Positions 38,665-58,997 of a stretch of 64,000 nucleotides of DNA are shown here, one piece after another. The position numbers and the translations under genes were made by a program. Each line of letters starts with the position of its first letter. The stretch's first letter is position 1. The DNA comes from Podarcis gaigeae (Eukaryota): the NCBI GenBank assembly GCA_964106915.2, contig OZ066918.1, one strand, 5' to 3'. The notes beneath the pieces are model-generated. The model was not told where the DNA came from. It was given only the letters and a program-made list of their open reading frames with translations, and did no database searches.

Positions 38665-38716
38665 CTAGTTCCTCAGCTCTGCTCGGGGCATTTTGAACAT
38701 ATGTGGTGGCCTTGAT
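38665..38716 (-). CDS. prominin last coding exon
   Basis: [16 protein letters not shown]; acceptor tttctccctttgcag; F-x-x-P-R resembles PROM2-type tail. Confidence 0.85.
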
Positions 38717-41700
38717 CTGCAAAGGGAGAAAAGTAGAAAGAGCGCTCTAAGCTTGAGGCTAGGTGGTTGGGCAGGGCATGAAGCAGAAAGGGGTTTCTAA
38801 TAAGGATTTTTTTAAAAACTAATGGCACTTGGAGAAACCTCTCTGGTCTATATCAGTCTTATTGGCCTTAGTGGAAGTGGGGATGAATACTTTCCTAGCC
38901 CCCACCCACTGTAAAAGCATTCCCTGCAGCTAAGATTCAGTTCATGCCCAGATAGGATTTGGTGAGTTCTGTGCACAATGCCAGCCACACTTCCTCTTAG
39001 CAGCACCCCAGGGACTGCCTCTGTGCAGCTGGGGCCAGCATGCAACAGAAAGCTCAGCTTAGCACAAAGAAGACCAAAAGCATACCCTGCAGAGCATTAA
39101 ATGTCTTCTGACTCAGCCACCAACACCAAAGCAAGAGAGCTTCATAATTGAATTGGCAGAGCTCCTTTCCCAAAATGGTCTTGTTCAGCACCCTTCTCCA
39201 GTACTAGACCTCCTTCTCGTTACTTAAATTGCACAGTCATTTCCTACATCTAGGGCAGCTTTCTTTTGAACTCCACACCAAACAGACAGGAGGTAGGAAA
39301 AGATACTTACAGTTCCATGTTTTCCATGGCACCGTCCCTAGTAAAAGAAAGAGAATGTCAATGGGATATATGACAGCTTCCTCAAAGGCTTTCCAGAATG
39401 CATGCTAAGCTCCCTTAACCCTAATGTGGGCAAGGGAAATAAAAAGAAGAGTACTATAACCCCCAACTGCTTATACTGGAACCAGATGGCAGGACAATGC
39501 AACCTTTCAGCAGTGCTGCCAATCCTGGGTGCCTGTTGAGCGGCAGAAAAACCCATGTCCATCGACCAAGCTTAATGCACCTAAGCGCTAGCTAGCATAG
39601 CTCCTTTATATAGTAAGGCTTCTTACATATAGTAAGGCTTCTCTGGGTCTACTTCTGGCATCGCACAGACAAAGTGGGTGCAGAGACGTTTAGCCGTAAG
39701 GTTAGAATTATGCACCCTCTGAAGTGCTGCCTTAATAGGTCAATAGTTTGTTGACCTTGTCATGGCTCTAGTCTAGTTCATGCCCAGGGTCATGGGGATT
39801 TTTTGTTATTGCGAAACACTGCCCAGGCTTGTGCTCTGGAGAGGTCACCTCGATGTCCCTATCACAGCAGTTTGACTTCACCCACAGAGGCACACTCCAT
39901 TGTCTCTCCAAGACGGATAGATGCCAACAACGACAACAAACCCAGATAACACAGCATGGGTGTGGCTTCCACAGGATCATGTTTTGCCAGAAAGGTTGAA
40001 AGCTGTTTCTGAGTATAAGCAAGTGGGAAGTCAAAACATTCCCTTTTTCATTTACTAGAGAAGGCAGTTAGCACTTTCCCCTAGAGGCTTCCCCTGGAGA
40101 ACCCACTTTTCCATCAGTATCTTAAAAGCAGACACTTTCACAAGAGGGATGGTTGGTTTACAAGAATACCACAGCAGCAGCCCTACCTGGACTTGCACTT
40201 CTAGGCAATGGAACCAACTGAAAGGTAGAGGGCTTAAGGGGTGTCCAAGCCTATAATCAGTGAACAGTACTGGGAGTGGGGTGGGGGGGAGAAGTAAAGC
40301 ATCTGATCCATGGCCATAGGCAGGGTGACAGGCAAAAGTATGACCCATCCTCACGTGTAGACGTCATCCATGTGCATTCTGCGGTAAAACTTGGCAAGCC
40401 GCACAGCCAAGATGATGCTCGGCAGCAGAAAGACGGTGCACCAGCCTAGACTGAACCAGAAGGCGTTCTAGGGGGAGAAGAGGGGAAGGCAGCTGTCAGT
40501 CCTCCCGCTGTCCCACGTGCAGATCTGTCCCACGTGCAGATGTCTCCCCAGCTTCTTTCCATGCCCCACCCCAGGCAAGATTCCCAGAGCCACAGCACAG
40601 CCTCTGCCCAAGGTAGTTACAATTTCTGTGGCCCCACCACCTACCAGTTACTCCTACATCCTGGGCTGCAGTCTCCATCTCTCAACCTACGGACTGCCAC
40701 CCTGCTGTCCCTTATCCATGCTGGCTCATTGCCACACCCCACCTCATCCCTCATGTTGACTGCCTCACCAATGAATTGACAACGCAGCTGCAGACCACGG
40801 TATTCACACTATCCAGTGCCCAGGCTGCAGGGCCACAGCGGCCCACCTGCTCTTTGATCTGCCAGCAAAGAAGACAAGGGAAACATCATGACCAGCAAAG
40901 GAAAAATCCTGAGCCCTGCACTCCTTTCCTGGCCAAACACCTTCATTGTGTTGTCATCATAAATGTTGCCAGTCCAGCTAAGCACATGGTAGGAATTGTC
41001 CTGGCATTGCCAACCTTATAACTTCATGCTGTGCTTGCACCCTAGAAGTAAGATGGGCAACGGCAGTACACTTTCCGGGAGATCAACTTGATTTTGCTTA
41101 CATATGCCTCCAGGGCCACCTGTGCATGAGGCTGTAAGACTGGCATCTGAATGCAATTGGCTGATTGGGAAACTGCTGTTAAGTACAGAATGCTGCAACA
41201 GGACTGCTGCCAGGAGTGAGGTTCTGTCAGCATATTGGAGTTGCCCTCAGATATTTGCACTGGCTGCTGATGGGCAGGATGGTGGGATTCAGTGTTACGT
41301 TGGCTGCTCACACTTGTAGGAAACAGGCGAGTGCAGCCAAGCCAGGAGAAATTAACCCTCGCTCATCTGCTGCCATAAGTTCAGCAGGATTCCTCCTTCC
41401 TGTTTCATGAGTCCCATGGGCATCTTCCCAAAATGGAGGACCAGGTGTTGCTGTTTGAACCTCCAAAAACTGGACATTCAAAAAGGAGTGTGTGACTATT
41501 TGAAAGCCCTTTGCAAAAGTGCTCCTGACAGTTTTCAGAAGTTCAGGCAGCAGGGCATGGGGACAACTGAGGTTTCAAACTGCAGTATCACCTGGTGTCA
41601 AAACTCCGTCCACCTGCCAAAAGTAACCTGTCAAAGATTTGGAAATAAAATTCTGGCCCACCAGGCAGAAAAGGTTCCCTGCCCCATATCATTTTTGACG

Positions 41701-58746: not shown

Positions 58747-58780
<34 letters not shown>

Positions 58781-58997
58781 CTGGCCACATTTGACTTCTG
58801 GGTGAAGTGTCAACCTTTTGGTGTTTGCTGAGCCTACCACACCAACATTTCCTTTTCATCCCTGTCCAGGTTCACCAACTGCCACCCACTAGCCTCTGAG
58901 TTCCATGAACCAATACAAAAAAATAAATAAGTCACCTCTTTATACGCTGCTGGGTCTGTGAAATTAACCTGGCGCTGGATCAGGCGAGTCAGAAGAT
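38665..58997 (-). CDS. prominin-family pentaspan membrane glycoprotein (prominin-1-A-like / prominin-3-type); 23 coding exons, signal-peptide exon not found in window
   Basis: 23 GT-AG exons sum to 2288 nt (2 nt + 762 codons including TAG) with no internal stop; five hydrophobic segments, [13 protein letters not shown] after TM1, [31 protein letters not shown]; exon sizes 206, 121, 64, 90, 75, 64, 160, 153, 124, 85, 72, 54, 81, 69 match the PROM1 exon pattern as recalled. Confidence 0.93.
39311..39337 (-). CDS. prominin cytoplasmic-tail micro-exon
   Basis: 27 nt, DGAMENME(L); strong pyrimidine-rich acceptor and gtaagt donor; phase 2/2. Confidence 0.8.
40355..40467 (-). CDS. prominin exon (TM5)
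   Basis: [37 protein letters not shown](T), 113 nt. Confidence 0.95.
40769..40858 (-). CDS. prominin exon
   Basis: [30 protein letters not shown], 90 nt. Confidence 0.92.
41785..41921. mobile_element. Tc1/mariner (pogo-like) MITE
   Basis: TA|CCGTATTTTTCCATGTATAAGA...TCTTATAGATGGAAAAATGCAG|TA. Confidence 0.78.
42224..42292 (-). CDS. prominin exon
   Basis: [23 protein letters not shown], 69 nt. Confidence 0.9.
42717..42797 (-). CDS. prominin exon
   Basis: [27 protein letters not shown], 81 nt. Confidence 0.9.
43480..43533 (-). CDS. prominin exon
   Basis: [18 protein letters not shown], 54 nt. Confidence 0.88.
43731..43826 (-). CDS. prominin exon
   Basis: [32 protein letters not shown], 96 nt. 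Confidence 0.88.
43971..44401. mobile_element. degenerate non-autonomous hAT-like element
   Basis: CAGGGGCAGCC...GGCCAGCTCTG ends with subterminal cctcagg repeats. Confidence 0.45.
44513..44584 (-). CDS. prominin exon
   Basis: [24 protein letters not shown], 72 nt. Confidence 0.9.
45544..45690 (-). CDS. prominin exon
   Basis: [49 protein letters not shown], 147 nt. Confidence 0.92.
45905..45989 (-). CDS. prominin exon
   Basis: [28 protein letters not shown], 85 nt. Confidence 0.92.
46305..46840 (+). mobile_element. L1-type LINE fragment with TSD, containing a nested MITE
   Basis: ORF2-like [18 protein letters not shown]...[29 protein letters not shown](C/G)CACCA at 46287-46304 and 46841-46858. 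Confidence 0.78.
46319..46556. mobile_element. Tc1/mariner MITE nested in L1 fragment
   Basis: TA|CAGTC...CCAAGGTACAACTG|TA. Confidence 0.7.
47074..47165 (-). CDS. prominin exon
   Basis: [30 protein letters not shown](K), 92 nt. Confidence 0.92.
47507..47630 (-). CDS. prominin exon (TM4)
   Basis: [41 protein letters not shown], 124 nt. Confidence 0.95.
48100..48283 (+). mobile_element. squamate tRNA-derived SINE
   Basis: ttttgcatgcagaaggttccagg...ccctggcatctcc...gcagcttcctacattcct. Confidence 0.7.
48339..48491 (-). CDS. prominin exon (TM3)
   Basis: [50 protein letters not shown](A), 153 nt. Confidence 0.95.
48655..48793 (+). repeat. 139-bp direct repeat, copy 2 (prominin intron)
   Basis: 136/139 identical to 36473-36611. 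Confidence 0.95.
49072..49231 (-). CDS. prominin exon
   Basis: (E)[52 protein letters not shown](R), 160 nt. Confidence 0.92.
49520..49837. mobile_element. GC-rich non-autonomous hAT element
   Basis: TIR CAAGGCTGTCTTA / TAAGACAGCCCTG; 8-bp TSD ACTAAGCC/ACTGAGCC. Confidence 0.8.
49962..50143 (+). mobile_element. squamate tRNA-derived SINE (degenerate)
   Basis: gtagctcagtg A box; family similarity to 48100-48283. Confidence 0.6.
50533..50596 (-). CDS. prominin exon
   Basis: [21 protein letters not shown], 64 nt. Confidence 0.9.
51010..51084 (-). CDS. prominin exon
   Basis: [25 protein letters not shown], 75 nt. Confidence 0.9.
51483..51673 (-). CDS. prominin exon
   Basis: (V)[32 protein letters not shown]...CGAPC...GANLSA, 191 nt. 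Confidence 0.92.
51780..52055 (-). mobile_element. L2-type LINE 3' fragment
   Basis: [30 protein letters not shown], an L2 ORF2 C-terminus-like peptide, followed by an AT-rich tail. Confidence 0.75.
52153..52229. repeat. compound (TG)n(TA)n(GC)n(CA)n microsatellite
   Basis: 77 bp of uninterrupted purine-pyrimidine alternation. Confidence 0.95.
52718..52853. mobile_element. young perfect-hairpin hAT MITE
   Basis: 58-bp perfect inverted arms, 20-nt loop, perfect 8-bp TSD CTCTAAAC. Confidence 0.93.
52985..53074 (-). CDS. prominin exon
   Basis: (E)[29 protein letters not shown], 90 nt. Confidence 0.9.
53797..53860 (-). CDS. prominin exon
   Basis: [21 protein letters not shown], 64 nt. Confidence 0.9.
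54738..55093. mobile_element. Tc1/mariner MITE (same family as 11272-11576)
   Basis: TA|CAGTGGTGCCCCGCAAGACGAA...TTCGTCTTGCGAGGCACCACTG|TA. Confidence 0.9.
55735..55855 (-). CDS. prominin exon
   Basis: [40 protein letters not shown], 121 nt. Confidence 0.92.
57297..57589 (+). mobile_element. Sauria SINE, lacertid-type, internally deleted
   Basis: GGTGGCACTGTGGG A box, GGTTCGAATCC B box, (ACCTTT)n tail, 14-bp TSD AACCTCATCCCTCA (57283-57296, 57590-57603). Confidence 0.92.
57794..57999 (-). CDS. prominin exon (TM1, Cys cluster, start of TM2)
   Basis: [46 protein letters not shown]...AVSTIL(V), 206 nt. Confidence 0.95.
58936..58997 (-). CDS. prominin exon (N-terminal ectodomain)
   Basis: (D)[20 protein letters not shown], 62 nt, cag/gtgact, phase fits next exon. 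Confidence 0.8.

What the first reader, a model, noticed from the sequence alone, without database searches (positions are those of the whole stretch)
38665..58997. Intact prominin paralogue beside HPS6: probably the third vertebrate prominin, absent from the human locus
Seen: 23 in-frame exons encoding a pentaspan prominin with no stops, tail-to-tail with HPS6. Known: in human the order is ARMH3-HPS6-LDB1 on 10q24 with no prominin gene there; PROM1 is on chr4 and PROM2 on chr2. A third prominin has been described in non-mammalian vertebrates. Inference: this is that prominin-3-type gene, retained in lizards and lost in the human lineage, with little functional characterisation. Automated annotation may mislabel it as PROM1-like or PROM2.
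Basis: partly seen in the sequence, partly recalled or inferred. Interest (0 to 1): 0.7.

Follow-up and report, generated by a model that had tools for sequence, protein, structure and literature searches.

The report
Lizard prominin-3 lacking a signal peptide
This lizard gene is an intact copy of prominin-3, the known third vertebrate relative of the stem-cell marker CD133, which reportedly is missing from humans and other placental mammals; it likely shapes cilia and microvilli as its relatives do, and, like its counterparts from frogs to platypus, it has no recognisable signal peptide, whereas the fish version has one.

Summary
Confirmed. The 23 exons in the window, plus a first coding exon 3.4 kb past its right edge, give a stop-free 805-aa pentaspan prominin with all-GT-AG introns. 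Transcript-like contigs from related lizards show the same splicing. Gene order is ARMH3-HPS6-prominin-LDB1, and PROM1 and PROM2 lie on other contigs. In a maximum-likelihood tree the protein groups with fugu prominin-3, frog, chicken and platypus copies (97/94), sister to PROM2; grouping it with PROM1 or PROM2 is rejected (AU p 2e-6, 2e-41). So this is prominin-3, described in 2008 and 2011, and usually mislabelled 'prominin-1-A-like' or 'prominin-2' in databases. Platypus keeps it, so the loss came after the monotreme split; marsupials are untested. One addition: none of 77 scorable tetrapod prominin-3 models has a hydrophobic leader, against 29 of 33 fish ones. The lizard leader carries three in-frame stops, and a probable disulfide pair was lost in the same lineage (neither cysteine in 30 tetrapod proteins, both in 18 of 19 fish). 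In the papers I could search, the missing signal peptide is noted only for Xenopus. The scan's earlier notes held no prominin-3 finding. Known gene; modest interest.

The parts
38665..58997 (-). Prominin-3 gene, coding exons 2-24 (in-window part). The first coding exon lies outside the window at L011:3443-3772 (200-nt leader with three in-frame stops, ATG at L011:3572, residues 1-43, no signal peptide); LDB1 follows on the same strand about 17-24 kb past that ATG
58936..58997 (-). exon 2, 62 nt, residues 44-64
57794..57999 (-). exon 3, 206 nt: TM1, Cys-rich first cytoplasmic loop, start of TM2
55735..55855 (-). exon 4, 121 nt
53797..53860 (-). exon 5, 64 nt
52985..53074 (-). exon 6, 90 nt
51483..51673 (-). 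exon 7, 191 nt, C268/C272 in the first large loop
51010..51084 (-). exon 8, 75 nt
50533..50596 (-). exon 9, 64 nt
49072..49231 (-). exon 10, 160 nt
48339..48491 (-). exon 11, 153 nt: TM3 and second cytoplasmic loop
47507..47630 (-). exon 12, 124 nt: TM4, invariant C470
47074..47165 (-). exon 13, 92 nt
45905..45989 (-). exon 14, 85 nt, invariant C513
45544..45690 (-). exon 15, 147 nt
44513..44584 (-). exon 16, 72 nt
43731..43826 (-). exon 17, 96 nt
43480..43533 (-). exon 18, 54 nt
42717..42797 (-). exon 19, 81 nt
42224..42292 (-). exon 20, 69 nt: helix where fish prominin-3 and PROM2 carry a Cys that this protein lacks
40769..40858 (-). exon 21, 90 nt, invariant C720 and C735
40355..40467 (-). 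exon 22, 113 nt: TM5 with invariant W746; Y779 at the start of the tail
39311..39337 (-). exon 23, 27-nt micro-exon, included in all 4 runs laid
38665..38716 (-). exon 24, coding part ending in TAG; the 3' UTR runs on to at least 38440
28770..31217 (+). HPS6, single-exon 815 aa, tail-to-tail neighbour

Best explanation
This is an intact prominin-3 gene lying between HPS6 and LDB1, encoding an 805-aa five-pass protein with no recognisable signal peptide, which likely enters the ER membrane by its first transmembrane helix and likely sits on cilia and microvilli, where it would shape curved, cholesterol-rich membrane. SHOWN here: exon structure, open frame, splicing in related lizards, neighbours, clade membership, and the absence of a hydrophobic leader in this gene and across tetrapod prominin-3 models. 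INFERRED from paralogon evidence: it is the LDB1/LBX1-linked copy from the vertebrate whole-genome duplications, sister to PROM2, lost in mammals after the monotreme split. INFERRED mechanism: TM1 acts as an N-out signal anchor that pulls the roughly 65-residue N-terminus (sequons at N5 and N55) into the ER lumen, giving the usual topology of N-terminus out, two large glycosylated loops out and tail in. At the surface, the TM bundle with W746 and the probably palmitoylated Cys cluster would bind cholesterol-rich membrane, stabilise protrusions and bud vesicles, as shown for PROM1; the tail keeps the Y828-like tyrosine (Y779). Odds: identity as prominin-3 about 0.97; no signal peptide about 0.9; normal topology and PROM1-like protrusion role about 0.7.
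For: Tree: prominin-3 clade of 15 rows, 97/94; prominin-3+PROM2 100/100; the window protein nests in squamates (100/99), amniotes with platypus (100/99) and tetrapods (100/99). AU rejects window+PROM1 (p 1.6e-6) and window+PROM2 (p 1.5e-41). The genome has three prominin loci, on C9, C19 and C17; the C19 exon finds PROM1 proteins and the C17 exon PROM2 proteins. Identity to the window protein: 52-95% reptile prominin-3, 35-36% PROM1, 30-31% PROM2. Intron positions: 22 of the first 22 fall within 3 alignment columns of own PROM1 introns (18 exact) and 21 of 22 of own PROM2 introns (18 exact). LDB1 lies 17-24 kb past the ATG, with a 57/57 match to a PDB LDB1 chain and weaker LDB2 matches; ARMH3 C-terminal exons lie left of the window. 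Wotton 2008 places teleost prom3 at the Lbx1/Ldb1 locus. Signal peptide: 0 of 77 scorable tetrapod models have a hydrophobic leader and 75 of 77 start within 45 aa of the anchor motif, against 29 of 33 fish prominin-3, 13 of 13 PROM1 and 22 of 23 PROM2. The lizard leader has in-frame stops at -48, -69 and -99. Relatives' contigs show several upstream exons and a 1-nt indel 17 nt before the ATG. In own PROM1 and PROM2 the signal peptide lies in this same exon. Cys pair: both present in 18 of 19 fish prominin-3 and 9 of 9 PROM2, neither in 30 tetrapod prominin-3. W746 is invariant in 72 sequences and 33 residues before Y779, as W795 is before Y828 in PROM1. AlphaFold model of the 95%-identical P0001: pLDDT 86, long helical bundle. 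Function by homology: zebrafish prominin-3 silencing; PROM1 vesicle formation and W795.
Against: I found no protein-level evidence for a tetrapod prominin-3; Han and Papermaster could not show that the frog protein is made. The signal-peptide test is a hydropathy and length heuristic on predicted gene models, mostly birds and squamates, which are not independent; 10 of 87 tetrapod and 3 of 36 fish rows could not be scored, and some turtle and bird models carry longer N-terminal extensions. The prominin-3 branch is short (0.078) and the tree used LG+G4 without a mixture model. The column I take to be PROM1 K138, the Arl13b/HDAC6 site (numbering recalled), is His here and Lys in only 2 of 30 tetrapod prominin-3, and the Y852 region is absent, so the PROM1 ciliary mechanism may not carry over. 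The runs laid are RNA only by the tool's guess, come from related species and carry no tissue label. Mammalian loss was not tested on genomes.
Confidence: 0.85

Rival explanations
1. A reptile-specific duplicate of PROM1, as the database name 'prominin-1-A-like' suggests.
For: Names given by NCBI. Higher identity to PROM1 (35-36%) than to PROM2 (30-31%). Shares the Cys-rich loop and the tail tyrosine with PROM1.
Against: AU p 1.6e-6. The clade includes ray, lungfish-type, sturgeon, teleost, amphibian and platypus members. PROM1 lies on C19.
Confidence: 0.01
2. The true PROM2 orthologue, or a moved copy of it, as the names 'prominin 2' for Anolis and fish copies suggest.
For: Sister to PROM2 at 100/100. 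Shares an F-x-[IM]-P-R tail motif with PROM2. Database names.
Against: AU p 1.5e-41. A separate PROM2 locus lies on C17, and the lacertid PROM2 that maps to it groups with human PROM2. Cartilaginous fish have members of both clades.
Confidence: 0.01
3. The protein does have a signal peptide, encoded by an unannotated upstream exon spliced straight to the ATG (an AG lies just before it) or read from a non-AUG start.
For: AG directly 5' of the ATG. Some database models of turtles and birds have N-terminal extensions.
Against: Contigs of 4 of 4 runs cover the leader contiguously from the ATG exon to L011:3746-3776, and no joint at the ATG was listed. Three in-frame stops in the leader. Of three upstream exon stretches translated, two have no ATG; the third has one, but is spliced to the leader with its stops. 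72 of 77 tetrapod models start with the same Met plus sequon. RACE-based Xenopus cDNA had no predicted signal peptide.
Confidence: 0.06
4. Losing the signal peptide changed the protein's topology or destination: N-terminus left in the cytosol, or the protein retained in ER or endosomes, so that tetrapod prominin-3 no longer works like PROM1.
For: Signal peptide and a probable disulfide pair are lost in the same lineage. The K138-like lysine and Y852 are not kept. The gene was later dispensable in eutherians.
Against: The N-terminal sequon is kept in 72 of 77 tetrapod models, which makes most sense if the N-terminus is lumenal (inference). The basic cytoplasmic loop after TM1 fits the positive-inside rule (general knowledge). 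Extracellular Cys 470/513/720/735 and W746 are invariant; median 20 sequons per protein.
Confidence: 0.12

Closest known systems
Prominin-3 (prom3 of Wotton et al. 2008, PMC2446394; xlProminin-3 of Han and Papermaster 2011, PMC3108902; fugu ADW76758 / NP_001233228)
   Same: Same clade, same LDB1-linked locus type, pentaspan layout, Cys-rich first loop. No signal peptide, as predicted for Xenopus prominin-3.
   Different: Wotton 2008 considered prom3 lost in tetrapods; here it stands in place next to LDB1 in a lizard. Fish prominin-3 keeps a signal peptide and a Cys pair that tetrapod copies lack.
PROM1 / CD133
   Same: Pfam PF05478; intron positions and phases; W795-like W746 and Y828-like Y779; Cys cluster.
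   Different: 35% identity; separate locus; no signal peptide; lacks the 9-residue mini-exon of PROM1 and the Y852-bearing tail; His at the probable K138 position.
PROM2
   Same: Sister clade at 100/100; intron positions; F-x-[IM]-P-R tail motif.
   Different: 30% identity; separate locus on C17. PROM2 keeps the signal peptide and both cysteines, and lacks the tail tyrosine.
Tweety homologues (TTYH1-3)
   Same: Weak Pfam Tweety hit below cut-off and weak Foldseek hits to TTYH2/3 (E 4e-4 to 2e-3); treated as homologous in Bell et al. 2024.
   Different: Much shorter extracellular loops; TM-scores of 0.09-0.16 for those hits, so the fold search adds little.

Membership tests
Prominin family (PF05478) | Profile match above the curated cut-off | tested here: met
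   4 places in the window over the cut-off; P0001 (95.4% identical) scores 714 bits over residues 6-771
Prominin family (PF05478) | Five TM segments, two large glycosylated outer loops, two short inner loops | tested here: met
   Hydropathy and 20 sequons; model. Prediction only
Prominin family (PF05478) | Cys-rich TM1/first inner loop; conserved outer Cys; TM5 Trp | tested here: met
   C94-C102 cluster, C470/513/720/735, W746
Prominin family (PF05478) | Shared exon-intron layout | tested here: met
   22 of 22 introns match own PROM1, 21 of 22 own PROM2, within 3 columns; the 23rd intron matched neither
Prominin-1 / prominin-2 type N-terminus (usual in the family, not required: already reported missing in Xenopus prominin-3) | Cleavable signal peptide | tested here: not met
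   heuristic, no SignalP run
Prominin family (PF05478) | Localises to membrane protrusions, binds cholesterol, is shed on vesicles | not testable with these tools
   Inferred from PROM1 and zebrafish prominin-3
Prominin-3 subfamily | Groups with named prominin-3, apart from PROM1 and PROM2 | tested here: met
   97/94 with fugu ADW76758; AU tests
Prominin-3 subfamily | Lies in the LBX1/LDB1 paralogon | tested here: met
   LDB1 adjacent; LBX1 itself was not searched
Prominin-3 subfamily | Third copy beside separate PROM1 and PROM2 genes | tested here: met
Prominin-3 subfamily | Absent from therian mammals | tested here: inconclusive
   No therian name among the best 120 of 354 hits; the only mammal I identified in the clade is platypus; 50%-identity representatives could hide a marsupial copy; no mammalian genome available
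PROM1 orthologues | Inside the PROM1 clade | tested here: not met
   AU p 1.6e-6
PROM2 orthologues | Inside the PROM2 clade | tested here: not met
   AU p 1.5e-41

The most novel reading that the evidence does not exclude
At the fish-to-tetrapod transition, prominin-3 dropped its signal peptide and an N-terminal disulfide tether in one step and has been inserted by an N-out signal anchor ever since. Tetrapod prominin-3 would be a natural signal-peptide-free CD133 relative with changed trafficking or a freed N-terminus, kept by frogs, reptiles, birds and platypus and discarded by live-bearing mammals. Comparing it with fish prominin-3 would show directly what the leader and the tether do for prominin sorting to cilia and microvilli.
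Probability: 0.55. Interest if true: 0.5.

Novelty: already known. Interest (0 to 1): 0.3.

Why it matters
It settles the identity of a gene that databases misname. Reptile, bird and platypus 'prominin-1-A-like' and the fish 'prominin-2' proteins placed here are prominin-3, so work that treats zebrafish prom2 as the orthologue of mammalian PROM2 (e.g. PMC6896185) may be comparing paralogues. It places prominin-3 beside LDB1 in a tetrapod, completing the paralogon picture of Wotton 2008. The tetrapod-wide loss of the signal peptide and a Cys pair gives a ready-made test of how prominins are inserted and sorted. None of this is a new kind of system.

Tried and rejected
Sequence search of solved structures with P0001: 0 hits, so no prominin structure in that PDB copy. 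Foldseek against PDB: 3 matches at E up to 0.001, all with TM-score 0.15 or less; uninformative apart from weak TTYH hits. Rfam scan of the window: 0 matches. Looking for fused gene models that would reveal HPS6 or LDB1 next to prominin-3 in other species: 0 of 522 proteins hit outside the prominin span. No RNA holder listed on record and no tissue labels, so nothing is claimed about expression level or tissue. Jaszai et al. 2020 (zebrafish prominin-3) was not held under either id; I saw it only as cited in two reviews. An in-frame ATG 75 nt upstream of the start was rejected as a signal-peptide start because a stop follows two codons later. Literature searches for synteny with HPS6 (0 papers), venom-gland expression (0 papers) and therian loss (10 listed, only Wotton 2008 holding the word prominin) added nothing. 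Earlier scan notes by sequence and by place: none. No complex was predicted, because no binding claim is made.

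
Full report
Observation. A Pfam Prominin search of the window's genome (G000, 1.51 Gb) found 17 exon-sized matches in three clusters: the window (C9), C19 and C17. One window exon used as query gave 354 proteins, of which the best 120 were listed; the top hit was an 805-aa lacertid 'prominin-1-A-like'. tBLASTn with it mapped the exons and splice sites were read from the sequence. Twenty-three exons lie in the window (58997 to 38665, minus strand) and the ATG exon lies 3.4 kb past the right edge (L011:3443-3772). 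Together they give 805 aa with AG/GT at all 23 introns and no internal stop, 95.4% identical to P0001. None of 20000 random AG..GT joins of the same lengths was stop-free. HPS6 is a single 815-aa frame on the plus strand ending about 7.4 kb from the prominin stop.

Splicing. No run was on record as RNA; 18 of 24 listed were guessed RNA. Four were laid on 38440-58400. Their contigs skip GT-AG introns at 15 of the 21 predicted places among the rows shown (tables cut). A 1721-nt contig of run X5 carries exon 11 at record 99 and exon 1 at record 1286, exactly the 1186 nt of exons 2-11 apart; a 2463-nt contig of X6 fits exons 13-20 plus 30 nt. The runs differ from the window by a few percent, so they come from related lizards, and no tissue is known.

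Neighbours. LIM_bind matched C9:58801584-58802099 on the minus strand, about 20 kb past the ATG. Further LDB exons surround it, and a 57-aa exon is identical to a PDB LDB1 chain (125 bits, against 97-100 for LDB2). ARMH3_C exons lie on the minus strand left of the window. The order is ARMH3, HPS6, prominin, LDB1. The C19 locus is PROM1 and the C17 locus PROM2 by best hits and exon maps; a second LIM_bind hit lies on C19, 2.1 Mb from PROM1. That the human order is ARMH3-HPS6-LDB1 is recalled, not tested.

Phylogeny. A search of 50%-identity representatives gave 760 proteins, best 150 listed. Those of 740-1000 aa went into a FastTree of 122 rows with named anchors, and 20 were looked up for names. 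A careful tree of 36 rows that I chose to span taxa (797 columns, LG+G4, groups taken) gave PROM1 100/100, PROM2 100/100 and prominin-3 97/94, with prominin-3 sister to PROM2 at 100/100. The window protein nests with squamates, then with turtle, chicken and platypus, then amphibians, then fish including the published fugu prominin-3 (ADW76758). Constraining it to PROM1 or PROM2 costs 327 and 251 log-likelihood units (AU p 1.6e-6 and 1.5e-41). Intron positions are shared with both paralogues, as expected for whole-gene duplicates. Caveats: short stem branch, no mixture model, three unnamed outgroup rows taken to be invertebrates from their place, and one unnamed row (P0020) taken to be lungfish from its likeness to P0019.

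Signal peptide. Tetrapod prominin-3 models begin at a Met followed within a few residues by an N-glycosylation sequon, whereas the lungfish, ray, sturgeon and teleost copies have a hydrophobic leader. Of 87 tetrapod rows, 77 could be scored: 0 had a leader, 75 started within 45 aa of the anchor motif and 72 had the Met-sequon start. Of 36 fish rows, 33 were scored and 29 had a leader; PROM1 13 of 13, PROM2 22 of 23 (hydropathy heuristic). Nine of the ten unscored tetrapod rows have aberrant or incomplete-looking starts; two scored bird models and two turtle models seen later have longer extensions with no evident hydrophobic core. In this genome the first coding exon starts at an acceptor 200 nt before the ATG, behind a branch-point-like motif and a pyrimidine tract. 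Contigs join it to at least three upstream exons near a CpG island. The leader has in-frame stops at -48, -69 and -99, and relatives differ by a 1-nt indel at -17. In own PROM1 and PROM2 the signal peptide sits in this same exon, so the leader is where it would have been. A Cys just after the leader and a Cys on the helix at positions 693-701 are both present in 18 of 19 fish prominin-3 and 9 of 9 PROM2, and both absent in 30 of 30 tetrapod prominin-3 and 7 of 7 PROM1. That they form a disulfide is inferred from co-occurrence, and in tetrapods the loss is one event, not 30.

How it likely works. Shown: a five-helix membrane protein with two large sequon-rich loops, a Cys cluster after TM1, invariant outer cysteines and W746, predicted as a long helical bundle (P0001 model, pLDDT 86, pTM 0.64). 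Inferred: TM1 serves as an N-out signal anchor (general knowledge of type III insertion; the kept N-terminal sequon and basic first loop fit). Inferred by homology: it concentrates on cilia and microvilli, binds cholesterol-rich membrane and buds vesicles. W746 and Y779 are 33 residues apart, like PROM1 W795, needed for surface delivery and vesicle yield, and Y828, implicated in Arl13b binding. Against a simple carry-over: the position I take to be K138 (numbering recalled) is His here and rarely Lys in prominin-3, and the Y852 tail is missing.

What is in print. Wotton et al. 2008 (PMC2446394; passages, supplement search and one supplement part) named teleost prom3, placed it at the Lbx1/Ldb1 locus and thought it lost in tetrapods. 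Han and Papermaster 2011 (PMC3108902; passages and sections 13 and 21; supplements not read) cloned Xenopus prominin-3, found it the most abundant prominin in kidney, listed chicken and platypus copies, found none in eight eutherians, and noted no predicted signal peptide. Zebrafish knock-down shortens and reduces Kupffer's-vesicle cilia (Jaszai 2020, not readable; seen as cited in passages of PMC11776279 and PMC10967083). Passages only: PMC6331727, PMC11405016, PMC3047580 and PMC3664558 (nothing on prominin-3 in the passages found), PMC6896185. In the listings of the searches I saw no paper on a lizard prominin-3, its HPS6 neighbour or a tetrapod-wide loss of the leader; one search returned only Han and Papermaster. 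Subscription papers and book chapters by the prominin groups are outside the library and may already say so, as may the unread appendices of Han and Papermaster.

Verdict. The gene is a known paralogue, already annotated under misleading names in close relatives (11 lacertid records in its cluster). What this follow-up adds is firm placement by tree and synteny, and the tetrapod-wide loss of the signal peptide with a probable disulfide pair. Novelty: already known. Interest 0.3.

Noticed in passing
P0333 (Albula) and unnamed P0345, P0359, P0363, P0369, P0382; The PROM2 clade holds ray-finned fish members: bichir, gar and a teleost (Albula, 100/100 with gar), plus five unnamed relatives. Wotton 2008 held that PROM2 was lost in teleosts; at least one teleost lineage seems to keep it.
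   Followed up: partly
L011:3877-3925, 5277-5522, 5584-5700 (beyond the window's right edge): At least three alternative upstream exons splice into the first coding exon in related-lizard contigs; two lie in a CpG island at L011:5001-6000.
   Followed up: partly
window 38687-40086 and 40829-41820: Low-depth contigs read through the last introns (depth 14-31, against 150-280 for the spliced joints in X1 and X2): pre-mRNA, retained introns or DNA.
   Followed up: no
G000:C19:7119887-7211923 and C19:9294639-9294788: Own PROM1 keeps a 9-residue mini-exon after its second coding exon that prominin-3 lacks; a second LIM_bind hit, probably LDB2, lies 2.1 Mb away on the same contig and strand.
   Followed up: partly
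window 28001-29000: Strong CpG island (GC 0.70, CpG o/e 0.92) at the HPS6 start; ARMH3 runs on the minus strand to the left, so this is probably a shared head-to-head promoter. ARMH3 5' exons inside the window were not mapped.
   Followed up: no
window 12497-13519 (+): Reverse-transcriptase fragment (RVT_1, E 1.5e-11) of a LINE-like element.
   Followed up: no
window 60161-60625 (+): 155-aa open frame in prominin intron 1 that resembles the 3' end of a CR1-type LINE (resemblance recalled; no Pfam hit).
   Followed up: no
window 36473-36611 and 48655-48793: 139-bp stretch present twice at 97.8% identity, once between HPS6 and the prominin 3' end and once in intron 10; other dispersed repeats at 11269-11579/54735-55096 and 23420-23636/57303-57516.
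   Followed up: no
P0048, P0026, P0063: Database misnaming of proteins found with the window exon: a turtle one called fibroblast growth factor-binding protein 3, an Anolis one called Prominin 2, and the fugu one carried as both prominin-2 and prominin-3.
   Followed up: partly
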